Below, one piece after another: positions 13,291-64,000 of a stretch of 64,000 bases of DNA; position 1 is the stretch's first letter; the number at the start of each line of letters is the position of its first letter. Origin of the DNA: the human T2T-CHM13v2.0 reference genome, Homo sapiens; the NCBI RefSeq assembly GCF_009914755.1, contig NC_060941.1. One strand, given 5' to 3'. Both the position numbers and the translations under genes were made by a program. The notes under the pieces are model-generated. The model did no database searches and was not told where the DNA came from. It saw only the letters and a list, made by a program, of their open reading frames with translations.

Positions 13291-14152
13291 ATCCCTTACC
13301 TCTAATCACATACCTGAACACAACTGGCTTACGTGAAGGCCGTTGACAGTTCAAGAGTAACAATTCAAGGTGTCTAGAAAGCTATCATTACAAGAGCAGA
13401 TCACAGGAAACCTCAGCTGTTGGTTCCTAACTTCGCTCCTACTCAAAGGCCAACAGAACCGGGGAGAAATCTTCCTGTTTTGTTGATATCAATTTATTTT
13501 GTGCCAAGAACCTATACCTAAAACCAACGCAGGGTTTGTATTCCCCCTGGATTCTTCATTACCCCAGGAAAGTGGAACAGATCAGACCAGTTTCCAAGAA
13601 CAGAAGCACTGCAGGGCAATCTTGCTAAGGGGGCCCTGAGATGTTTCTCTCTGTACTAATCTCTATGTCTTTTATGTACATCAACACAAACCTTCACCCA
13701 ACCATCTCTGCCATCAACAGCAAATCTAGGGAAGAGACCAATAATACCTTAGAAAAGCACACCTATCCACCGAACCAAAACTAAATACAGAAGGATATGG
13801 CAGTTTGCCCCGTTTTCCAGGTAGCTGTGTTCTCTTAATTTGCCATGAATTAAAATGTTTCATTTTTACTTAGACATAACTTGAATATGTCATTTCAAAT
13901 AACAAAATAAAAACTGAACTGAATATGTTTTAGTTAAAACAATACAAAACTGAAATCTCCTCTTTTAAGAGAGAAACGCTTCATCAGCTGGTTAGTTCCC
14001 TTGTTTGCTTACTGGGTGATATGAAACCCAACTACAGCTTTCCAAAAATAATCCCAAGTTGTGGGGTGTCCTACTACCTGTGTTTAAGTAAAACAAGTCC
14101 TGCAGAAAAAGTGGATCCAACGAGTAGCAGGTTTGTTAAGAAGCTAAATCTT

Positions 14153-14785
<633 letters not shown>

Positions 14786-15149
14786 TTATTCTAATTCTGA
14801 GAAGAAATGACATTTAATAAGAGCTCATGTCTTAGCAAATCAAAATGTTTGTCCTGCTGGGGAAAAAAAAAAAACAACAACGGTTATCCAGGTATAAAAA
14901 GCAATTACCAGGACATTTAACATTAAGATGAACTAAAATTGTGCACAAAATAATTGTCCACATTTACTACAGCACTCATAGTGGGAGTAAATAAAATGCA
15001 ATTACTTTTGCTAAAGCAACCTACTTTTTCTGGTAACAGACCGTCTCTCACTATACCTCTAATAGTAGATCTACACACAACTTAGCATGGTGTAGGAACT
15101 TGAGTGCATGCTCCTACAGCACACAACAGATGCACTGAAAGGCTCCCAC

Positions 15150-15362
15150 CTCTTAACTAACAGCTTATGCTGCAAGGCATCAGCCAGGATAACGGCAGAG
15201 CCCTTCTGTGTATGTGTTCTTTCACAGGCGGCACTGTTACCGGAAGAAGCGAAGAGCAGCGATTTCCTTCCAAAAGGTCAGCTGCCTCAGACAGACCAAA
15301 CAGAAAGCAGCGAATTCTTGCCAACTTCCCCTCCTGCTTCTGCAGCTAGTACGCAATAGCAT
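15150..15362 (-). promoter_or_regulatory. Paralog of the STAT5A promoter/leader core; candidate alternative STAT5B promoter/first exon
   Basis: 15302-15234(-) aligns to 54921-54992(+) at 59/69 identities plus one 3-nt gap. Candidate donor AG|GTGGGA at 15150/15149. Local CpG retention in an otherwise CpG-poor intron. Confidence 0.7.
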
Positions 15363-15596
15363 TTAGTTTCCAGTAAAGCTCCAGATAAAAACAAAGCAAA
15401 TGTGAGACCCAGAATCTACACAATGTCAGTGTCTCGCTTGACTGAACGAAGGGCAGTAAGATCATATGGAGCTACGCTTTTTCAACGTGGTGGAAGTGTT
15501 AGGAAGGTGAGATTAAACATGAAGAAAAGGTCAGGACTGGAACCATCCAGATTTTATACCAATGTCCAGAAGTCTCCATCTAAAAATAAGATGGTA

Positions 15597-15945
<349 letters not shown>

Positions 15946-33454: not shown

Positions 33455-34988
<1,534 letters not shown>

Positions 34989-35552
34989 TAGTTACGTAAC
35001 AATAACCAAAGAAAAATACAAAAAGAGGGACTATTTACATTGTATCCTTACATATTAAACCTTCCATGCCTTCGGAATAAGAATCTAGTATCCAGTTCTC
35101 ACTATACATAGCTTTCCCTCACTTTCTATCAGAAATGAGATAGGAGTCCCACCTTCCTGGCATCAGAAACAGATCACCAATCCTGCAAACAAATTCACAG
35201 GGTGAACTGTTTCATTTTTAAAGAGCTGTAGATTTCTGTAGATCTCTAATTTGCTACTTTTCCTAAACCTAAAAGATGACCAAAAGATTTTTAGAAACAT
35301 TAAACAAAAAAACAGAATTAGCATTATTTCTAACAGAACATTTTACCTATTTAAATATACTGTAGAATGAATGCTATATTACAAAGCTGATGAATTCCAA
35401 TTTTTAGTACTTTAAGAGATCAAGTGTTCAAGTTTCTTTTTATATAGGCTACAATGACATGTATGAATGTAACTTAACATTTAGCCCAGGTTAGATTTTT
35501 TAAAATCCCACTCCTTCAAAAACAGTGACTTGCCACCAGCTATAGGCTCTGA

Positions 35553-42379: not shown

Positions 42380-43500
42380 TGTGAGGCGGCTGACAGCAGC
42401 CCCCTGAGCTCCTATGGGGTCGGCGCGGGGTCCCCACACACCCACTCAGCACACGCGCACGCAGCCTTTAAAGCGCACGCCCCCCGCGGCGCCGCGGCGT
42501 TCGCAAGTCCCCCTCGCGCACCCCGCATTGCCCTCAGCCTCCCCGGCAGCCAACCCGGACCCCCTCTCCCCGCGCGCGCCCCTCGCCCAGCGCGCAACCA
42601 CCGCGGCCCGGGAGTGATGGCGGCGGCGCGGCCCTGACGGGCGGCTGAGCGGCTGGAGCGCGGGCCCCGCCCGGGCTGGCTCCCCGGCCTGGCTCCCCCG
42701 GCCCCGGGCCCAGGGCTCGCCCCGCAGCTCCTACCTCGCTCGGCCCCTCGGGCGCCCGCGGCTGCTCCGGCCCAGCTGTCTGGCTTGCCCGCCCGCCCGC
42801 TCGCTCCCTCCCTCGGCCGGGCCGCCGCGCGGAGTTGCCTGCGCTGGGTCCCCGCCCGGGGTGACGGCTCCGGCCGCCGACTCTCCTCCCGCCGGGGCCC
42901 GCGGGGGCGCGCGCGCCGCTCACGCGCGGAGGCCCAGGGACGCGCGCCGCTGGCAACCCGGAGCGCGCCCCGCTTCCTGGTTCCGCCCGGCGCGCGCTCG
43001 CTAGCCCGCTGTCCCTCGCGCCCCCTCCGCGACCGCCCTTGAAGGACCCGGACCCCCTCGGCACACCCGAGGTGGCGGCGCGCTCGGCGGTGCCGGTGCC
43101 GGCGCCGCGCGCACCCCCTTTCTGCGGCGGTGGGGTGTCTTCCCGGCTCGGCTCCCTAGCCGACGCCGCACCGCAAGCACATGCTGCTTTGTTTGGGTTG
43201 GGTCGACCACCACTAGCAGGGCTAGGGCGCACTGTCGTGGTCGTTTTGGTTGGCCCCCTCCGCGGCCCGCCCACCTCTCTCCCTGGGAGCCCAGGCCCGC
43301 GTTCCGGGTCCTCTCCCGCCGAGGCCGAGGTCAGAAGTCCACAGGGGCCCCGATCAATAATTATCCTGGGTTTGCCCCCGGGAGGGCGTCTCAGCCAGGG
43401 CTCCTGCCGCCTGCATGGGCACGGCAGGAATTCACATTCGCCCAGGCCGAATTCACCTGTCCGAGTTCCAGGGTGAACCTACGGGGGACGGGGCGCCTGG
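42380..43500. promoter_or_regulatory. STAT5B: CpG island / main STAT5B promoter
   Basis: Very high GC and CpG density, GC boxes (CCCGCCC), no TATA box, surrounds exon 1. Confidence 0.9.
42735..42878 (-). other. STAT5B: STAT5B non-coding exon 1 (5' UTR); TSS approximate
   Basis: Reverse complement GGCGGCCGGAGCCGTCACCCCGGG...GGGGCCGAGCGAG matches my recollection of the STAT5B mRNA 5' end. It ends in a GT donor, lies in a CpG island and is divergent from STAT5A. Confidence 0.88.
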
Positions 43501-52815: not shown

Positions 52816-54034
52816 TCAACCAAGGGCACAGCCACTGGGCACAGGGTCAGGGTGGGAGGCACGGGAGGGCTCTGAAAACACAGCCACACACCCTTTTAGG
52901 CCCATCCTTCCCATTCTGTACTCTGGCACCTCAATGCTAGCTTTTTAGGACCTAGGACTACCCACACTAAAGCCAAGCCCGGCCCAACCAAGACAGATGT
53001 TTGGTGGGTGGGGCTGCCTGCTGGAGCAACAGGCCTCTGCAGGCCCTGGAGGAGAAGTCTAGAGAGGTGGCTGCCTGGAAGAGAGCAGGCAGGACCCCCT
53101 CTCTTAAGCAGGCACCCCCACCCCATCAGGTGCCCAGATGTCAGTGCATGGCAAGGGTGGCCCTCTGCCCTCCAGACCTGGGTGAGAGGACTTGAAAACC
53201 TGAGGAATCTGCTCCCATCAACTGACTTCCACACCTGCCTGAAGGGAACTGCTGGAGGGCACAGGTGCCAAGTGGGACCCACCCAAATGTGGCAATGGGT
53301 TTGTATCCAGCCACCGACAGGCTGCATGACGGTGGCAAAGTCACTTCCCCTCTCTGGCCTTTGTTTTTCCACTTGTAAAATCATCTTTATGGTCACTTCC
53401 AGCTGTGGCACTTGGCTTTCATTCCAGTTGACCCCCTAGCTCTGTGTCTGACCCTCCCCTGCCAAATCCATTGCTCAGAGTGGGAAAGGAGAGGAGAGGG
53501 ACTATACTTCCTCCTCCCTGGGGCCCCCTGCAGAGCATCTGGGAAGCAAGGCTTCCCTACATCCTCCATGCACCCCCTTAGAGTTTTCAATTCCTTTCCT
53601 CGTGATCCTGCCAACTAAGACACTGTGACCACACAGAGAAGGTGGGGAGAACGCAGACATTTTGGCTTCTGCAGCTTTGAAGTTCTTTTTTTTTTTTTCC
53701 TCTGAAGTTAAAAGAATGAAACTGGGAGAGGTAGTAAGGGGCAAGAAAGGAGAGTGGAAATGGAGAGAAAAGGGCAGCTCTGAGAAGCAGCTGGGGAGGG
53801 AGGCAGATGAGAATGCACCCCCCCCAACAGAACATGCAGTCTTGGCCCAGCTGTGCTGTGAGTGGGCAGCTGGGCTGGCCCCTCCTCTGGTGCTGCCAAC
53901 CCGCTGCCAGGCAGAGGGGAGGCCCAGAGGAGAGGGAAGCTGGGCAAAGGGGATGGAAGGCGTCCAGCCCGACCTTACCAAACCCCTTGGGCCTCGTGGG
54001 AAGGGGCCTCTTGGAGAGGGGGACTGAGGCTCTA

Positions 54035-54122
54035 GACAGGATATTCACTGCTGTGGCAAGGCCTGTAGAGAGTTTCGAAGTTAGGAGGACTCAAGACGGT
54101 CCCTCCCTGGACTTTTCTGAAG
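54035..54122 (+). other. STAT5A: STAT5A upstream non-coding exon of the long-leader isoform (start approximate)
   Basis: Donor CTGAAG|GTAGAA at 54122 and a downstream acceptor TTTTTAATCTAG|GGGCTC at 54542. The joined sequence resembles my recollection of a STAT5A long 5' UTR. Confidence 0.6.
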
Positions 54123-54542
54123 GTAGAACCAGCCTCATAAGTAACTAGGCTGGGTGAACGGGGGCGCTGGCTAGTTTATGGATCACAGTCGGCTGGTGAG
54201 GCCACGTGCCTACTGTGTGGCCCTGGGTGGCCCCGGGCAAGCCCCTTTCCCTCTCAGGACTTCCATTTCTTACCTGCAAAATTGTGGAGAGGGGGAGGGC
54301 TGAAACACATGACTGCCAAGATTCTTTCCAGTTCCTCCGTCAGGGTTGAGTTTAGATGGCCGGAGTAAAAGAAGGAGGGAGGTGCTGCGGTGGTGGGGGT
54401 GATCTTGGCTTCACTAGAATCCCCAGTTCTTCCCCTCTCTACAGTTTTGTCTCTGAGGTCACAAAACCTGTGGCCCCCAAGACACACATGCGCACACACG
54501 CGCGTGCACACACACACCCCACACATTTATTTTTTAATCTAG

Positions 54543-55085
54543 GGGCTCAAAAGATGACACGCGCCAGAGCTGGAAGGCGTCGCCAATTGGTCCACTTTTC
54601 CCTCCTCCCTTTTTGCGGATGAGAAAACTGAGGCCCAGGTTTGGGATTTCCAGAGCCCGGGATTTCCCGGCAACGCCCGACAACCACATTCCCCCGGCTA
54701 TTCTGACCCGCCCCGGTTCCGGGACGCTCCCTGGGAGCCGCCGCCGAGGGCCTGCTGGGACTCCCGGGGGACCCCGCCGTCGGGGCAGCCCCCACGCCCG
54801 GCGCCGCCCGCCGGGAACGGCCGCCGCTGTTGCGCACTTGCAGGGGAGCCGGCGACTGAGGGCGAGGCAGGGAGGGAGCAAGCGGGGCTGGGAGGGCTGC
54901 TGGCGCGGGCTCGCGCGCTGTGTATGGTCTATCGCAGGCAGCTGACCTTTGAGGAGGAAATCGCTGCTCTCCGCTCCTTCCTGTAGTAACAGCCGCCGCT
55001 GCCGCCGCCGCCAGGAACCCCGGCCGGGAGCGAGAGCCGCGGGGCGCAGAGCCGGCCCGGCTGCCGGACGGTGCGGCCCCACCAG
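54543..55085 (+). other. STAT5A: STAT5A non-coding leader exon (shorter transcripts probably start internally near 54.9 kb)
   Basis: Acceptor AG at 54541-54542 and donor CCAG|GTGGGT at 55085. Lies in the CpG island upstream of the ATG exon. Confidence 0.75.
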
Positions 55086-56050
55086 GTGGGTGACCCGGTG
55101 GCGCGTCCTCGGCGGCGCGCCGAGAGGGGACACTCTACTGCCGCCCCGGCACCTCCGGCACCCGGAGCTCGACGGCCGGGCGCAGCGCGGGGATCAGTCC
55201 CCGGCACTGCGAGGGAGTTGGCCCAGCGCAGACGAGGGACGGGGGGACGTGGGGACAGGGGTCGGGGATGAAAGGCAGAGGCCAGGGAGGGCGCCGTCCT
55301 GGCACGCCTCGGAGAGGGAGCACCTGTCGGGCTGGACCCGGGGAGGCACTAGTGCACAGATGGGGGAGCAGCCGAAGAGGGGAGCGCCCAAGTCCTCAGC
55401 CCTGTCTCCTGAACAGCCCCAGCCACGTGCCCGAAAAGCCCTAGCCGTCGAGTGGGAGCCGTCGTGGCGCTGGCCTAACTTCGGGTTGGAATATCTCCCC
55501 TTCCCAGAAACCGGGCCCGAGGTGGGCTGGGGGATCCTTGCAGCCCTCTCCAGGGGGCCTGTGGGCCTCCCGCCGTCAAGTTTCTCTTTCAGTTTCTGGC
55601 CGTCCCCCTCACTAGGGAAGCTCCGGTGGGGCGAGGGGAGAGGAAGACGGGGAGGGCACCTGCCTCTGCAGAGCACCTTCCCCTCCCCTTCAGCGGGTTC
55701 CTTGTTGGAGGGGATGGGCGGCCCTCCACTCCTCACCATCTCTGTTCCCGCACAGGAAAGCTATCTGTGGGAGGGGAGGGGCCTGGCCTGGCCGCGGTCC
55801 AGGGATAGGTAGGCATGGCAAGGCCAGGGGCAGGCCCGGTTCCTTGGCCTCTGCAGAGGAGAGCGCTTCAGCGCTCGGCTCGCCCTAGGTGAACGGCCAT
55901 GGCGGGCTGGATCCAGGCCCAGCAGCTGCAGGGAGACGCGCTGCGCCAGATGCAGGTGCTGTACGGCCAGCACTTCCCCATCGAGGTCCGGCACTACTTG
56001 GCCCAGTGGATTGAGAGCCAGCCATGGTAGGCACGTCCCGCCCTGCCCCT
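54640..56050. promoter_or_regulatory. STAT5A: CpG island / STAT5A promoter
   Basis: High CpG/GC content, GC boxes, kB-like and GAS-like motifs. Confidence 0.88.
55899..56026 (+). CDS. STAT5A: STAT5A coding exon 1 (aa 1-43, [43 protein letters not shown]); exon starts 55889
   Basis: Acceptor CCCTAG|GTGAAC, Kozak GCCATGG, donor CCATG|GTAGGC. The MAGWIQ N-terminus is diagnostic of STAT5A (STAT5B begins MAVWIQ). Confidence 0.98.
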
Positions 56051-56352
56051 CCTCAGAGGGTCCCTACCATCCAGGCCCTTTGGCCTCTAGTTTTACTCAT
56101 GGTGGTTTGGTGTGACTCTGGTCCTGCCTGTCCTTCTTTGTGCGGAAGGGGTGGTGCCCCTGGGAAAGGGGAAGCCTGGGAGGACAGAGAATGTTTTTAG
56201 ACTCGGATGTCTGTGGAGCTGCTGGGAACAAGTCTTGTGGGCCCTGGAGTGCCCTCGGTCATGAGCCTGGGGTTTCCACTTTATTCCAGCTCCCTGACCT
56301 CCTTGCCCAAGGAGGTGCCACAGTAGGTTTTTCTCTTCTGCCCTGCCCCAAG

Positions 56353-56509
56353 GGATGCCATTGACTTGGACAATCCCCAGGACAGAGCCCAAGCCACCCA
56401 GCTCCTGGAGGGCCTGGTGCAGGAGCTGCAGAAGAAGGCGGAGCACCAGGTGGGGGAAGATGGGTTTTTACTGAAGATCAAGCTGGGGCACTACGCCACG
56501 CAGCTCCAG
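56353..56509 (+). CDS. STAT5A: STAT5A coding exon 2 ([52 protein letters not shown])
   Basis: AAG|G acceptor and CAG|GTGGGT donor. 157 nt keeps frame (cumulative 285 nt). STAT N-terminal domain. Confidence 0.98.
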
Positions 56510-57344
56510 GTGGGTGTAGGCTCTGGGCCACCTACGGGGAGGAAGCATCATCTTGTTCCAGCATCAGAACCCCTGGGTTTTTTCCTGGCCTGGCCACTGA
56601 CTCACCATGTGACCACGAACTTATTGGGAACTTTTCTTCGATTTCCCCCACCCCCTCTTTCTAAATTCGACCTGTCGGATTTCTTTAGCATATTGCAAAG
56701 CAAGGGTGGGAGGTGTTTGTTGCCAACAGAGAGAGATGGGTGAACTGGCCTTATGGAAGCAGCAGAAGGGATGGAGGGAGACTGAGTCAGGATTCCTATG
56801 TTGGAGAAGGGAAGACCAGCAGACTCTAGAAATGAGGCCACCAGACCTCCCTCTTGGGGTCTTTTAAAGGTGAGAGAGGAGCCATCCCAGAGACAAGAGC
56901 TGGACACAAGGGCTTTGAATTGAGGGTTTAGAAATAAGATGTAGCTTCTTTACTTGAGGGGAGTGGGTATGGAGGAAGAGAGGGAGTTTTTGTGGAAGCA
57001 GGAAAGGGGTGTGGGTAGTGATGACAGTCAAGCACTTATTGGAACTCACGTATGTTTCCTAGAGAGCCCTTCAATACAGACAGCAGGGTGCCAGGGAAAT
57101 ACAAGTCCATCCCAGAAGAGGGGGAAAACAGGAGAAGCCTGAGGGGAAGCAATATAGGAGGCCAGGGGCAGGATGGTGGGAAGTACCTTGACCTTGGCAT
57201 CAGATGCCCTGAGTCTGGAGTCATCTGCTCTCTCACTTGGTTGCGTCTGGACGAGTACATAATGTCTGAGCATCAGTTTTCTCATCTGTGAAATGGGGAT
57301 CATAGTTTCTGCTTATGTCCTAGAGTTTCCATGCTGTTAGTGCC

Positions 57345-57880
57345 TTGATCCCCCACCACTTTTTGGCACCAGGGACCGGTTTCATGGAAGACAATTTTTC
57401 CATGGACCGGGATTGGGCAGGGAGGTGGTTTCTGGATGATTCAAGAGCATCACGTTTATTGTGCACTTTATTTCTATTGTTATTACATTGTGCTATGCAA
57501 TGAAATAATTATAGAACTCACCACAATGTAGGATCAGTGGGAGCCCTGAGCTTGTTTTCCTGCAACTAGACAGTCCCATCTGGGGGTGATGGGAGACAGT
57601 GACAGATCACCAGGCATTAGATTCTCTTAAGAAGTGCATAACCTAGATCCCTCGCATGTGCAGTTCACAATAGGGTTAGCATTCCTATGGGAATCCAGTG
57701 CCATTGCTGATCTGACAGGAAGCAGAGTTCAGGCTGTAATGCGAGCAATAGGCAGCAGCTGTAAATACAGATGAAGCGTCACTCACTTGCTCACCGCCGC
57801 TCACCTCCTGCTGTGTGGTCCAGTTCCTAACAGACCACCGACCTGTACCAGTCCATGGCCCAGGGGTTTGGGACCCCTGT
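57345..57880 (+). mobile_element. MER1A (hAT-Charlie) element
   Basis: Starts CCCC...CTTTTTGGCACCAGGGACCGGTTTCATGGAAGACAATTTTTCC and ends GGGGTTTGGGACCCCTG; about 530 bp. Confidence 0.85.
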
Positions 57881-57921
57881 GTTACAGTCAAAAGATACGG
57901 TAGATTGGAAGTGCTTCATAA

Positions 57922-58223
57922 GACTGGGTATGATGGCTCACACCTGTAATCACAGCACTTTGGGAGGCCGAGGCGGGTGGATCACCTGAGGTCGGGAGTT
58001 CGAGACCAGCCTGACCAACGTGGAGAAACCCCGCCTCTACTAAAAATACAAAATTAGCCGAGCGTGATGGCACATGCCTGTAATCCCAACTACTCAGGAG
58101 GCTGAGGAAGGAGAATCGCTTGAACCCGGGAGGTGGAGGTTGCAGTGAGCTGAGATCACACCATTGCACCTTTAGCCTAGGCAACAAGAGCAAAACTCCA
58201 TCTCAAAAAGAAAAAAAAAAAAA
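57922..58223 (+). mobile_element. Alu (AluSp-like)
   Basis: Full dimer; TSD AAGTGC(T/C)TCATAA. Confidence 0.95.
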
Positions 58224-58458
58224 AGAGAAAGTGCCTCATAAACTGTGGGTTTTTAATTCGCTCCAAACCAGATATGAAGATCTTGGAGGGGAAGATGAGG
58301 ATGAGGAACAGAGATATAGAGGTGTCTGGGGATAGTTCCTGAGGCTCCCTGGGAAAAGCTGAGGCAGAGGCTGAAGGAGAGGAAGGGCTGGGCATAGCAT
58401 GGGGCTGGCATGGCTGGAGCAGAGGATGGCGCTGGAGGCTACTGTTGGATTCTTTCAG

Positions 58459-58548
58459 AAAACATATGACCGCTGCCCCCTGGAGCTGGTCCGCTGCATC
58501 CGGCACATTCTGTACAATGAACAGAGGCTGGTCCGAGAAGCCAACAAT
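58459..58548 (+). CDS. STAT5A: STAT5A coding exon 3 ([30 protein letters not shown])
   Basis: TTTCAG|AAA acceptor and AAT|GTGAGT donor; 90 nt, phase 0-0. Confidence 0.98.
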
Positions 58549-58753
58549 GTGAGTGTCCCTTGGGGATGGGGAGGAGTGTTGAGAAGTCCCTCCATATGCC
58601 TTTCTCTCCAGAAACAACTGTGTTTATATAAAACAGCAGCACGAGGAGAGCACCAAGAAGATGAGGGACGTGGGCAAGTGTAAGAGGTGGCAGCATTGCA
58701 CGCCGGGGTGGAGTGACCCCCTGGATCCAGTCCCTGGCTCTACCACTTACTAG

Positions 58754-59414
<661 letters not shown>

Positions 59415-59623
59415 TGTTCCTACTCTTGTAAAATGGAGATAGCAATCATACCTATCTGTGTCAGAAGAACTAACACAGGCAGGCTCAGAGAAGTGAGGCC
59501 CAGGGAGGGGTAACAGGGACACATCTCCCCAGTTCTGAAATAATAAAGGCACTGGGCATCTACATGGACAATGGCACAGTGCTGTACTATCTGCAATAGA
59601 GCAAAATGAATTTCACAACATGA

Positions 59624-60037
<414 letters not shown>

Positions 60038-60175
60038 TAGACATTTATTGAGGTCTTACTGTGTGTCCGATGCTGGGCTATCATCAGAGAAACACATAAA
60101 GGCCTGGTTCTTGCCTGGAAGGAATTCTGGCAGTGATGGATTCTCTAGAGATGAGCTGAGTGCTAAGGGGGCCTA

Positions 60176-60715
<540 letters not shown>

Positions 60716-61322
60716 TAGGGGTTAGAAACCAGGTCACAAAGGGTCTTCCAGCACAGCCCCTGTGTCCCTGACTTGTTGCCATCACAGAGCTATCTGCAAA
60801 CCTAAAAATGACTTCAGCCTCATTGACAAATCCATGTCCATGGTGCTGGTGCTGTCATGGTCTGGGAGCTCATTCCTTCCTCCAACCATACAACTGTTCC
60901 TGAACACCCCTGGCATTCTAGGGCTTGGGGATTCTGTAGTTCACAGGAAAGGCAAGGTCCTAGCCCTTGGGAACCTCACATCCTTGTGCAGGGAGACAGA
61001 CAGAAACATGTAAGCAAATACAAGAACAACACACTTTTAGATAGGACTACTGTGAATTGGCTCGTCAGAGATGACCCCTCTGCAATGGTACCAGTTAAAG
61101 TGCTTTGCCTCAGGAGGATCTGATGCCAGAATGTTCCAGACTGTTGGAACAATAAGTGCAAGGGCCCCAGGGCAGGAACATGCCTGTGTGTTCAAGGAAC
61201 AGAAACAGAAAGCACACATTCCCAGCGAGCTGGGGTTGGAGGTAGGCAGGGCTATGGCCAGCAGACACCATGGGAAGGGGTTTGGATTTTATTCTGAGAA
61301 CAGTTCATTGGAAAGCCTCTGA

Positions 61323-61550
<228 letters not shown>

Positions 61551-62045
61551 TAACTTCATTTCGGGGTCTCCAGGATGCCTGTGAGAGTTTCGGCCTCTTC
61601 CCTCTTCCTTCAGTCACAAGGGGGTCTTAAGTGAGATGGTGTGTGTTCACACAGCCCTGTTCCTCCCTATGTCCCTAGGATCTACTGCAGTCCATGGTAT
61701 TGAGTCAGCAAATAAATGTAGAGCGAGGGGTCATCATCATTAGTGGGAAAACCCAGGTGACACCTGGGACGTGTTGAGTTCTAGTCCCTGGGAGGAAATT
61801 AGATGGACCCTGTTTGGAATACTCTAGTGGAGGGCAGCTCTGACATAGATATTTGGACTTTGAAGGTGTTACTATCTGCCGTTATCTGCCAGGTCACCTG
61901 TTTCTCCTTTCTCTTTCCCTTTTCTATCCCAATTCTGGCAAATGACTCCTTCTGATGCAAATGATCCTTCCTTCTTGCCCTAGTTTCCCTTCTTACCCTA
62001 GTTTGGGGTTTGGGGTTTGGGGTCTGTAGTATTGGTGTTTCCTAA

Positions 62046-62321
<276 letters not shown>

Positions 62322-62449
62322 TGAGGAACATTCTATGGACTCCTAGAGGGTAGAGCTGGGTCAGTGTCCATCTCCTCAGCACTTTGCCCAAAGCCTGGTA
62401 GAAGCAATGGCTCCCGGTGATTGAGCCCCTGCCGTGGGTCACACTTGGC

Positions 62450-62630
62450 ACACATTATTTAATTCAACCCTCTCAACAAGCCTATGAAGTGAACAGTTGT
62501 GTTATCCCCCCTTTTGCAGATGGTAAAAGTGAGGTTCAAAGAGAACAAGTAACTTGGCCTAGGTTGCCTGTAAATTACAGAACTGGATCTCAACTAGAGA
62601 TATATCATAAAACTCCTGTACTTTATTAAC
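62450..62630 (-). mobile_element. MIR
   Basis: TTTTGCAGATGGTAAAAGTGAGG...AAGTAACTTGGCCTAGGT. Confidence 0.7.
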
Positions 62631-63104
62631 CAGTATTCTCTCCTTAATGGTATGTATTCTGTAAATATCGACACAAATAGGTAAATATGAACAGTGCTCC
62701 CTAACCAGAGGGAGGACTTGGATTGGAAGTCTTCTGGTTGAACCAGGCTGGGAGAGGTGGAACTTCCAAAGTGGGCCTTCTTGAGCCTCACGGATAGGAT
62801 GTGGGCCTGGGGGAAGGGGTGACAGTAGAAAATTCTCCTGTATCCTAGGTCTGTAGTTCGCCAATGGCTCCCATGATAAAGATGTGGGGAAATTAAAAAA
62901 TCAAATTAGCTTGAAAGGAACTATCCCCAGGTACAATTTGAGGAGTCATGGGACATGGCCCATCTATTAATATGTCCCATTCCAGACTGACCCCAGAAAT
63001 GTAACACCTCATCTTAGTGAGAACAAGGGGTGTCAAACTGCTTTTTCCTTTACTCTTTTTAATCTGATTTCTTAAGGTAGACCTTAGGTCATTGATTTTA
63101 GACC

Positions 63105-63298
63105 TTTCTTCTTTTCTTTTCTTTCTTTTTCTTTTCTTTTTTTTGAGACAATCTTGCTCTGTCGCCCAGGCTGGAGCACAGTGGCATGATTTCGGCTCAC
63201 TGCAGCCTCTGCTTCCCAGCTTCAAGAAATTCTTGTGCCTCAGTCTCCCGCATAGCTGGGACTACAGGTGCAGGCCACCACGCCCAGCTGATTTTTTT
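63105..63298 (-). mobile_element. Alu right monomer within an L1M-like remnant
   Basis: Antisense monomer; flanking TTAGGTCATTGATTTTAGACCTTTCTTC is L1-like. Confidence 0.8.
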
Positions 63299-63321
63299 AG
63301 AATTCTATTGTAGCTATTTAA

Positions 63322-63736
<415 letters not shown>

Positions 63737-64000
63737 TAATTCTAAGAGAATTTCCCCTCATCTGAATCTATCCCAGACTGGCCCTAGAAGAAGGGCAGCT
63801 CCTTCTGAGAATGGAAACGGAAGATTTTGGGCGGTTATTCCTACCCAAGTCCTTAGACTGTCGACAGTATTTCTGATCCCGTGCCTGGCTTTTCTGTTTC
63901 CTGTGCATGGTGGCGGATTAGGTTTGGATTCAGGTTGGGTTTGGATCTATCATGCAGTGTCTTCTCAGTCCCATTTGTCAAGTTCACTCAGCAGAAACAC

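What the first reader, a model, noticed from the sequence alone, without database searches (positions are those of the whole stretch)
15150..15362. Hidden paralog of the STAT5A promoter/leader core inside STAT5B intron 1
Seen: 15302->15234 (minus, STAT5B sense) reads TGTTTGGTCTGTCTGAGGCAGCTGACCTTTTGGAAGGAAATCGCTGCTCTTCGCTTCTTCCGG---TAACAG. STAT5A 54921-54992 reads TGTATGGTCTATCGCAGGCAGCTGACCTTTGAGGAGGAAATCGCTGCTCTCCGCTCCTTCCTGTAGTAACAG. That is 59/69 identical, with perfect 15-bp (AGGCAGCTGACCTTT) and 16-bp (AGGAAATCGCTGCTCT) blocks, and I do not recognise it as a repeat. Both copies keep an E-box (CAGCTG) overlapping an NBRE/nuclear-receptor site (AAAGGTCA on the other strand), a GGAAA and an ETS core (CCGGAAG vs CAGGAAG). 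Both are followed about 90 nt later by an AG|GTGGG donor (15150/15149 vs 55085/55086). The flanks are unrelated (AT-rich vs CpG island). Established: STAT5A and STAT5B arose by an old gene duplication, and neutral non-coding homology of that age is normally erased. Inference: this is the ancestral STAT5 promoter/first exon, kept under selection in both paralogs and acting in STAT5B as an internal alternative promoter or enhancer ~27.5 kb downstream of its CpG-island TSS. An alternative STAT5B promoter may already be described; I cannot check whether it is this element.
Basis: partly seen in the sequence, partly recalled or inferred. Interest (0 to 1): 0.82.

Follow-up and report, generated by a model that had tools for sequence, protein, structure and literature searches.

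The report
STAT5A core-promoter paralog inside STAT5B intron
A unique stretch of about 70-100 bases in the first intron of STAT5B is a true evolutionary copy of the sequence just upstream of the main STAT5A start site, and it is better preserved than neutral DNA around it, but whether it still works in STAT5B could not be tested here.

Summary
Window 15337-15238 (minus strand) matches 54887-54985 at 75 of 100 columns, and the core matches at 59 of 69. The pair scores 48, against 10.1 +/- 1.3 for shuffles.

- **Unique:** these are the only two copies in the genome, found both ways, and neither lies in masked repeat.
- **Paralogous position:** the match is the first link of the colinear chain of STAT5A/STAT5B exon pairs.
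- **Where it sits in STAT5A:** the block ends at the MANE Select start site (54985), so it covers about -98 to +1 of that promoter.
- **No other counterpart:** STAT5B's own exon-1 CpG island shows no homology to the STAT5A 5' region.
- **Above neutral:** flanks and four-fold sites of never-converted exons are near saturation. Three CpGs are shared.

This points to selection, old gene conversion, or both. A neutral relic is disfavoured but not excluded.

Some details fail:
- The equivalent splice acceptor is dead.
- The exon body is not homologous.
- The two perfect blocks are not unusual.
- RefSeq has no exon there.

Orthologues, CAGE and chromatin data were not available. The 2002 paper on an alternative STAT5B promoter was not held.

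The parts
15238..15337 (-). STAT5B intron-1 copy of the element (full BLAST block), CHM13 chr17:43105238-43105337
   Evidence: 75 of 100 columns identical to 54887-54985, E 2e-13 and 9e-13 in the 114-kb search. Not in masked repeat. Local score 48 against shuffles 10.1 +/- 1.3.
15234..15302 (-). Well-preserved core of the STAT5B copy (69 nt)
   Evidence: 59 of 69 identical to 54921-54992 with one 3-nt gap. The genome-wide search returns only this copy and the STAT5A copy.
15273..15287 (-). Perfect 15-nt block AGGCAGCTGACCTTT, holding CAGCTG and, on the other strand, AAAGGTCA
   Evidence: Direct reading and the pattern match. The motif names are recalled consensus strings, not tested for binding.
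15253..15268 (-). Perfect 16-nt block AGGAAATCGCTGCTCT, holding one shared CpG (15261)
15240..15246 (-). CTTCCGG (CCGGAAG on the other strand), an ETS-like core. The STAT5A copy has CTTCCTG.
   Evidence: Direct reading. The motif name is recalled.
15144..15152 (-). Candidate splice donor GAG|GTGGGA (last exon base 15150)
   Evidence: 7.2 bits in a matrix built from 138 annotated donors, the 46th percentile of true donors. 3.3% of the 2366 GT sites of intron 1 score as well or better. No annotated exon ends here.
15284..15306 (-). Position equivalent to the STAT5A acceptor: CTGAG|GC, no longer a usable acceptor
   Evidence: -7.8 bits, below all 140 true acceptors, with G at -3. The STAT5A site CGCAG|GC scores 6.3 bits and is used by NM_001411103.1.
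54887..54985 (+). STAT5A copy, about -98 to +1 of the MANE Select start (NM_001288718.2, exon 1 = 54985-55085). It also lies inside the long 5' exon 54543-55085 of NM_003152.4.
54921..54992 (+). Core of the STAT5A copy: perfect blocks at 54936-54950 (-49 to -35) and 54955-54970 (-30 to -15), and CTTCCTG at 54977-54983 (-8 to -2)
   Evidence: Positions relative to the start site come from the annotation.
55083..55091 (+). STAT5A donor CAG|GTGGGT, the annotated end of the first exon
   Evidence: 9.9 bits, the 86th percentile of true donors. Annotation.

Best explanation
The element is the STAT5B-side paralog of the STAT5A core promoter. Both descend from one sequence in the single ancestral STAT5 gene. 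In STAT5A the module lies directly upstream of the main start site, so there it is the core or proximal promoter. Its shared features are an E-box overlapping a nuclear-receptor half-site near -45, a GGAA-rich block near -25, and an ETS-like core just before +1. In STAT5B the same module lies 27.6 kb downstream of the promoter in use and 16.5 kb upstream of the ATG exon. My preferred reading is that it is still a cis-regulatory module there. It would bind the same factors and act either as a weak or tissue-limited internal promoter or as an intronic enhancer. As a promoter, its first exon would run from about 15240 to 15150 and splice to the ATG exon.

Shown: homology, uniqueness, colinear position, coincidence with the STAT5A start site, and preservation above the local neutral level.

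Inferred: present-day constraint and any regulatory activity in STAT5B.
For: - **Only two copies in the genome**, each the other's best match.
- **Colinear position:** it is the first of 15 colinear links among 18 HSPs between the two genes, just upstream of the ATG-exon pair.
- **Ends at the start site:** the block ends at 54985, the MANE Select start of STAT5A. That is what a promoter with a free-to-vary leader would look like.
- **Leader not homologous:** the sequence downstream of the core matches no better than shuffles.
- **No homology at the STAT5B promoter:** shuffles reach the observed score against the STAT5B exon-1 island in 45, 63 and 191 of 200 trials.
- **Local neutral baseline is near saturation.** Intron flanks of unconverted exons are 38-52% identical, against 40.7% for unrelated pieces. 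Four-fold sites of CDS exons 1, 9, 10, 11, 13, 14, 15 and 18 are 44 of 112 identical (my sum of rows). The neighbouring ATG exon is 4 of 10.
- **Neutral decay fits poorly.** If STAT5A is held fixed and STAT5B decays neutrally, the observed score is reached in 3.8% of simulations at K 0.5 and 0.15% at K 0.62.
- **CpGs survive.** Three of the 8 STAT5A CpGs are kept at the same columns in an intron whose non-repeat windows have a median CpG o/e of 0.19. The 400-nt window over the element is in the top 4-5% of 289 windows for GC, CpG count and CpG o/e.
- **Usable donor:** it scores at the 46th percentile of true donors.
Against: - RefSeq RS_2025_08 has no exon, transcript start or functional element at 15150-15362.
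- The copy is CpG-poor compared with STAT5A. Five of the 8 STAT5A CpGs have no counterpart at the same columns of the STAT5B copy.
- A 3-nt gap falls exactly at the place equivalent to the STAT5A start site.
- The acceptor equivalent is dead.
- The mismatches are not significantly clustered.
- With the lower pooled baseline (one-lineage K 0.40), 29% of neutral-decay simulations reach the observed score.
- Short gene-conversion patches occur in this gene pair, for example a 243-nt block at 98.8% with random flanks. Similarity therefore need not mean selection on the STAT5B copy.
- No orthologue, CAGE, methylation, chromatin or junction data could be consulted.
Confidence: 0.45

Rival explanations
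1. Dead relic. The STAT5B copy is the remnant of an ancestral 5' untranslated exon or proximal promoter that STAT5B no longer uses. It is still recognisable because the STAT5A partner is held fixed by selection, and perhaps because an old, short gene-conversion patch reset the similarity. It has no function today.
For: - No RefSeq exon or element lies there.
- The acceptor is destroyed (-7.8 bits).
- The exon body has decayed to random.
- Most STAT5A CpGs have no counterpart in the STAT5B copy.
- The gap sits at the start-site position.
- A one-sided neutral model fits if the one-lineage K is 0.4 or less (29% of simulations at 0.40, 80% at 0.30).
- Patchy conversion is documented in this pair: blocks of 96-99% identity, and CDS exons 2-4 at 37 of 47 four-fold sites identical with poorly matching intron flanks. 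A passage read in PMC3296744 cites gene conversion between the mammalian STAT5 genes.
Against: - The local baseline from never-converted exons and intron flanks points to a one-lineage K of about 0.5-0.6, where the model reaches the observed score in only 0.15-3.8% of simulations. Those simulations include no indels, which favours the model.
- Three CpGs survive at shared columns. This is unlikely in germline-methylated neutral DNA of this age. That inference rests on the recalled roughly ten-fold higher CpG transition rate.
- A conversion patch needs similarity that had already been preserved, so it still implies earlier constraint on the STAT5B copy.
Confidence: 0.4
2. Skipped or rare cassette exon. 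The element is an internal 5' untranslated exon of STAT5B (15286 to 15150, 137 nt), equivalent to STAT5A exon 54938-55085 (148 nt).
For: The AG lies at the same aligned position as the acceptor used by STAT5A NM_001411103.1. A donor lies at a similar distance, and the lengths are similar.
Against: The acceptor scores -7.8 bits, below all 140 true acceptors, and 69% of intron AG sites score as well or better. No annotated transcript includes it.
Confidence: 0.04
3. RNA-level or peptide-level element: a conserved structure in the leader, or a conserved upstream open reading frame.
For: STAT5A has a 20-codon upstream ORF (54924-54986) in its long leader forms, and the STAT5B copy keeps the frame and the stop. 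RNAalifold draws a hairpin in which parts of the two perfect blocks pair with each other.
Against: - The start codon is TTG in STAT5B.
- By my reading, 7 of the 8 sense-codon differences change the amino acid, so there is no coding constraint.
- The folds are no better than shuffles (z 0.97, 0.26, 0.18, -1.25).
- Rfam gives nothing above its gathering score.
- The main STAT5A transcript starts after the element, so the element is not in that RNA.
Confidence: 0.03
4. Chance similarity or an unrecognised dispersed repeat.
For: None found.
Against: E 2e-13. None of 200 shuffles reaches the score. Only two genomic copies, found both ways, although that search skips very common words and closed regions. 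The position is colinear with the exon chain. The element lies outside masked repeats.
Confidence: 0.01

Closest known systems
Duplicated (paralogous) conserved non-coding elements retained next to both copies of a duplicated gene
   Same: A short non-coding block is shared only by the two paralogs, in colinear position, with unrelated flanks.
   Different: That class is defined by deep conservation across species and mostly concerns developmental genes after whole-genome duplication. Here cross-species conservation was not testable, the duplication is a local inverted one within mammals, and one copy is a core promoter. The class itself is recalled. I saw only the search listing and the start of the abstract of PMC1896008.
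The alternative tissue-specific STAT5B promoter of Ambrosio et al., Gene 2002 (pmid 12039059)
   Same: A second STAT5B promoter is reported, and one citing paper speaks of an 'upstream promoter' of Stat5b (passage in PMC5842396). An internal promoter at this element would fit that description.
   Different: The paper is not held. I saw only its title in reference lists, so its location is unknown to me. RefSeq's only alternative first exon inside intron 1 is 34772-35343 (XM_054316999.1). That is an equally good or better candidate for the published promoter.
Gene-conversion tracts between STAT5A and STAT5B
   Same: Islands of raised identity with sharp edges occur in this pair: 96.1% over 920 columns, 96.8% over 2679, and 98.8% over 243. 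Conversion between the mammalian STAT5 genes is cited in a passage of PMC3296744.
   Different: Those tracts are longer and far more similar. This block is 75-85% identical and 70-100 nt long, so any conversion would be old. It also coincides with a promoter boundary.
Relic first exon or promoter left in an intron after a promoter switch (pseudo-exon)
   Same: A former exon or promoter module lies inside the first intron of a gene that now starts further upstream. The acceptor is lost and the exon body has decayed.
   Different: The core is preserved above the neutral baseline and keeps CpGs.

Membership tests
Dispersed repeat / transposon fragment | Many copies in the genome | tested here: not met
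   Only the two STAT5 copies are found at E <= 10 with either copy as query, and with a gapped pattern allowing 2 mismatches. Caveat: that search skips very common words and closed regions.
Dispersed repeat / transposon fragment | Overlaps sequence masked as repeat | tested here: not met
   The nearest masked stretches are 14147-14748 and 15571-15909.
Paralogous conserved non-coding element | Significant non-coding similarity between the two paralogous loci | tested here: met
   E 2e-13. Score 48 against 10.1 +/- 1.3; 0 of 200 shuffles reach it.
Paralogous conserved non-coding element | Colinear position and same orientation relative to the paralogous exons | tested here: met
   It is the first link of a chain of 15 colinear HSPs out of 18.
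Paralogous conserved non-coding element | Preservation above the neutral level | tested here: inconclusive
   It is above the baseline of never-converted exons and intron flanks (0.15-3.8% of simulations). It is compatible with neutral decay at a one-lineage K of 0.4 or less (29%). Gene conversion is not separable from selection here.
Paralogous conserved non-coding element | Conservation of each copy among orthologues of other species | not testable with these tools
   No vertebrate genome other than this reference could be reached.
Alternative promoter / first exon of STAT5B | Transcription start evidence (CAGE, 5' RACE) on the minus strand near 15240 | not testable with these tools
   No expression data were available. 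Supplements of papers are closed.
Alternative promoter / first exon of STAT5B | Usable splice donor downstream | tested here: met
   GAG|GTGGGA scores 7.2 bits, the 46th percentile of 138 true donors. But 3.3% of the intron GT sites score as well.
Alternative promoter / first exon of STAT5B | Annotated transcript or junction to the ATG exon | tested here: not met
   None of the 6 STAT5B RefSeq or Gnomon models has an exon at 15150-15362. Junction reads were not available.
Cassette 5' untranslated exon | Usable splice acceptor | tested here: not met
   -7.8 bits, below all 140 true acceptors.
Structured RNA family | Rfam match, or a fold better than shuffles | tested here: not met
   There are two matches, both far below their gathering scores: an Alu-related SRP hit next door and a chance hit to Giardia U2. 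Fold z-scores are 0.97 to -1.25.
Conserved upstream ORF / peptide | Start codon kept and an excess of synonymous change | tested here: not met
   ATG becomes TTG. By my reading, 1 of the 8 sense-codon differences is synonymous.
Gene-conversion tract | Paralogs within a species more alike than orthologues between species | not testable with these tools
   This needs orthologous sequences.

The most novel reading that the evidence does not exclude
The single ancestral STAT5 gene had two promoters. The inverted duplicate that became STAT5A carried only the proximal one, which is now the STAT5A main promoter. STAT5B kept the distal CpG-island promoter and still holds the proximal one as a live, condition-specific internal promoter or enhancer. 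The two paralogs would then share one ancient cis-regulatory module that could co-regulate them.
Probability: 0.2. Interest if true: 0.6.

Novelty: new member of a known kind. Interest (0 to 1): 0.4.

Why it matters
STAT5A and STAT5B are near-identical proteins, and their different roles are ascribed largely to dose and expression. If this holds, the only surviving 5' homology between the genes is the STAT5A core promoter and a spot deep in STAT5B intron 1, not the STAT5B promoter. That gives a concrete picture of how the duplicates came to be driven by different promoters. It also gives a 100-bp target for testing whether a shared module still links their regulation, or explains the reported second STAT5B promoter. 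If the copy is only a relic, it still marks where the ancestral leader exon or proximal promoter lay.

Tried and rejected
**Homology of the leader up to the donor.** Local alignments with and without lenient scoring of transitions did no better than 1000 shuffles in each direction. Rejected.

**Homology between the STAT5B exon-1 CpG island and the STAT5A 5' region.** Weak BLAST hits appear in several overlapping registers and lie within the shuffle range. I take them as compositional.

**Structured RNA.** Rfam and folding were negative. With two sequences, the 3 'compensatory' pairs carry no weight.

**Peptide or upstream ORF.** No coding constraint.

**Cassette exon.** The acceptor is dead.

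**Perfect blocks as a sign of binding sites.** They are not unusual.

**Literature.**
- Searches found no held paper describing this element or locating the second STAT5B promoter. One search was badly framed and gave nothing useful.
- Ambrosio 2002, Crispi 2004 and Metser 2016 are not held.
- I cannot therefore say the element is unpublished. Supplements, which are closed, and the unheld papers may bear on this.

**What I recall of the Ambrosio abstract.** I recall two alternative first exons, one of them tissue-limited. This is memory only and gives no location.

**Recalled, not tested.** The motif names (E-box, NBRE, ETS), the roughly ten-fold CpG mutation excess, and the tendency of ETS sites to sit just upstream of start sites.

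Full report
**Observation.** I read both stretches. There are 69 aligned positions, 59 of them identical, with one 3-nt gap and perfect runs of 16 and 15. The ten mismatches are 5 transitions and 5 transversions. I masked the stretches that RefSeq marks as repeat (32% of the window). The best hit between the STAT5A part (53000-64000) and the rest of the window is then this pair. It extends to 54887-54985 against 15337-15238, with 100 columns, 75% identity and E 2e-13. A local alignment of the two neighbourhoods scores 48. Dinucleotide shuffles give 10.1 +/- 1.3, and 0 of 200 reach the observed score. The 100 nt on either side are 37% and 43% identical, against 40.7 +/- 4.3% for unrelated pieces.

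**Not a repeat.** The element lies between masked stretches, not in one. A whole-genome search with the STAT5B copy finds only itself and the STAT5A copy, at 85% over 65 nt and E 6e-11. The reverse search gives the mirror result. A gapped pattern allowing two mismatches hits only these two places, and its reversed control hits none. That tool skips very common words and closed regions, so the count is a lower bound.

**Position.**
- I extended the sequence to 114 kb and compared all of STAT5A with all of STAT5B on the opposite strand.
- Of 18 HSPs at E <= 1e-3, 15 form one colinear chain of exon pairs. The element is the first link of that chain. It lies just upstream of the ATG-exon pair (55897-56031 against -1379 to -1513, 78.5%).
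- The three off-chain HSPs are short, at 39-56 columns.
- In STAT5A the MANE Select transcript NM_001288718.2 starts at 54985. The block therefore spans about -98 to +1, and the core about -64 to +8.
- Other STAT5A transcripts include the element in a long exon (54543-55085) or splice into it at 54938.
- In STAT5B the copy lies 27.6 kb downstream of exon 1 (42735-42878) and 16.5 kb upstream of the ATG exon. No RefSeq exon or functional element overlaps it.
- The STAT5B exon-1 CpG island has no detectable homology to the STAT5A 5' region. BLAST hits there fall in several overlapping registers. Shuffles reach their scores in 45, 63 and 191 of 200 trials.

**How well preserved it is.**
- Intron flanks of the unconverted exon pairs are at random level, 38-52%.
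- Four-fold degenerate sites vary by exon:
  - 87-100% identical in CDS exons 5-8, 12, 16 and 17, which is recent conversion;
  - 37 of 47 in CDS exons 2-4;
  - 44 of 112 in CDS exons 1, 9, 10, 11, 13, 14, 15 and 18.

  The last two figures are my sums of rows.
- The script's own pooled figure for all exons outside the seven it flagged as converted (CDS 5-8, 12, 16, 17) is 81 of 159, giving K 0.80.
- The ATG exon next to the element is 4 of 10.
- The element, at 75-85%, is therefore as well preserved as the coding exons.

**A neutral-relic model.** I asked whether the STAT5B copy could be a neutral relic that is visible only because the STAT5A copy is held fixed. I simulated decay of one copy without indels. 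The observed score is reached in:

| One-lineage K | Simulations reaching the score |
|---|---|
| 0.30 | 80% |
| 0.40 | 29% |
| 0.50 | 3.8% |
| 0.62 | 0.15% |

The never-converted exons and the random-level flanks point to a one-lineage K of about 0.5-0.6. The pooled estimate gives 0.40. The neutral relic is disfavoured, not excluded.

**CpG evidence.** Three of the 8 CpGs of the STAT5A block are kept at the same columns in STAT5B. Non-repeat windows of this intron have a median CpG o/e of 0.19. The 400-nt window over the element is in the top 4-5% of 289 windows for GC, CpG count and CpG o/e. CpG mutates much faster than other sites in methylated DNA. On that recalled rate, the retention argues for selection, low methylation or later conversion.

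**Gene conversion.** This pair shows blocks of 96.1% (920 columns), 96.8% (2679 columns) and 98.8% (243 columns, a single exon with random flanks). A passage in PMC3296744 cites conversion between the mammalian STAT5 genes. An old short patch could therefore explain the element. Such a patch would still need similarity that had been kept until then.

**Details that do not hold.**
- The leader between the core and the donor is not homologous.
- The two perfect blocks are expected at this identity.
- I built splice matrices from 138 donors and 140 acceptors annotated in the 314 kb I held.
  - The STAT5B donor GAG|GTGGGA scores 7.2 bits, the 46th percentile of true donors. But 3.3% of the 2366 intron GT sites do as well.
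  - The AG equivalent to the STAT5A acceptor scores -7.8 bits, below every true acceptor.
- The shared AGGTGGG has P about 0.013 for a 31-nt window, judged after the fact.
- RNA folds are unremarkable and Rfam is silent.
- The STAT5A upstream ORF has no start codon in STAT5B and shows no coding constraint.

**History.** Passages of PMC3670131 date the STAT5 duplication between about 310 and 130 million years ago. They state that chicken stat5 sits as STAT5B does, without the inverted STAT5A. STAT5A is then the derived copy. Either the whole 5' region was duplicated and STAT5B later took a new upstream promoter, or the duplicate carried only a proximal element of the ancestral first intron. Outgroup genes would decide this, and I could not reach them.

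**Verdict.**
- The paralogy is solid.
- The element is the STAT5B-side counterpart of the STAT5A core promoter.
- It has been held above neutral by selection, conversion or both.
- I give 0.45 to a still-functional regulatory module in STAT5B (internal promoter or enhancer), 0.40 to a dead relic, and the rest to minor rivals.
- It is a new member of a known kind, paralogous non-coding elements. The caveat is that the 2002 paper on a second STAT5B promoter (title seen only) might already describe it. RefSeq's alternative first exon at 34772-35343 is another candidate for that promoter.

**What I saw of each paper.**
- PMC3670131, PMC3296744, PMC5842396 and PMC2947470: passages found by term search.
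- PMC12649934 and PMC8974754: reference-list passages only.
- PMC1896008: search listing and the start of the abstract.
- Ambrosio 2002, Crispi 2004, Seyfert 2000 and Metser 2016: titles in reference lists only.
- Supplements were closed and none was consulted.

Noticed in passing
window 63729-64000, continuing in L005:1-3959 (window 64001-67959): Near-identical blocks between STAT5A and STAT5B that include introns: 96.1% over 920 columns and 96.8% over 2679 columns. Four-fold sites in these exons are 87-100% identical. This probably corresponds to the 'regions of nearly identical sequence' in the title of the 2002 paper, and it is the signature of recent gene conversion.
   Followed up: partly
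L005:8716-8958 (window 72716-72958): A 243-column patch at 98.8% identity is confined to one exon, with intron flanks at 58% and 52%. Very short conversion patches therefore occur in this pair.
   Followed up: partly
window 56353-62280: CDS exons 2-4 have 37 of 47 four-fold sites identical (my sum), but their intron flanks are only 43-63% identical. This means either intermediate-age conversion confined to exons or constraint on synonymous sites.
   Followed up: no
window 54924-54986: There is a 20-codon upstream ORF in the long 5' leader forms of STAT5A. It is absent from the MANE transcript, which starts at 54985.
   Followed up: partly
window 15255-15273 and 15306-15324: There is a 19-nt direct repeat (84%, 51 nt apart) inside the STAT5B copy. 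Each unit holds one of the three shared CpGs, in a TCGCTGCT context. Short two-copy repeats are often chance.
   Followed up: no
window 54274-54521: A predicted STAT5B first exon (XM_054316998.1 / XM_054317001.1, minus strand) lies inside the first intron of the long STAT5A transcripts. The two head-to-head genes therefore overlap in annotation.
   Followed up: no
window 54659-55338: The RefSeq functional element 'silent region_8521' (silencer) covers the STAT5A copy of the element and the MANE start site.
   Followed up: no
window 34772-35343: This is the only RefSeq alternative first exon inside STAT5B intron 1 (XM_054316999.1). It is CpG-poor (GC 0.31-0.39 in 400-nt windows) and has a strong donor at 9.7 bits. 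It is a candidate for the published tissue-specific promoter.
   Followed up: partly
window 15598-15700: There is a sub-threshold match to metazoan SRP RNA (32.4 bits against a gathering score of 70). It lies in a masked repeat (15571-15909) and is probably an Alu.
   Followed up: no
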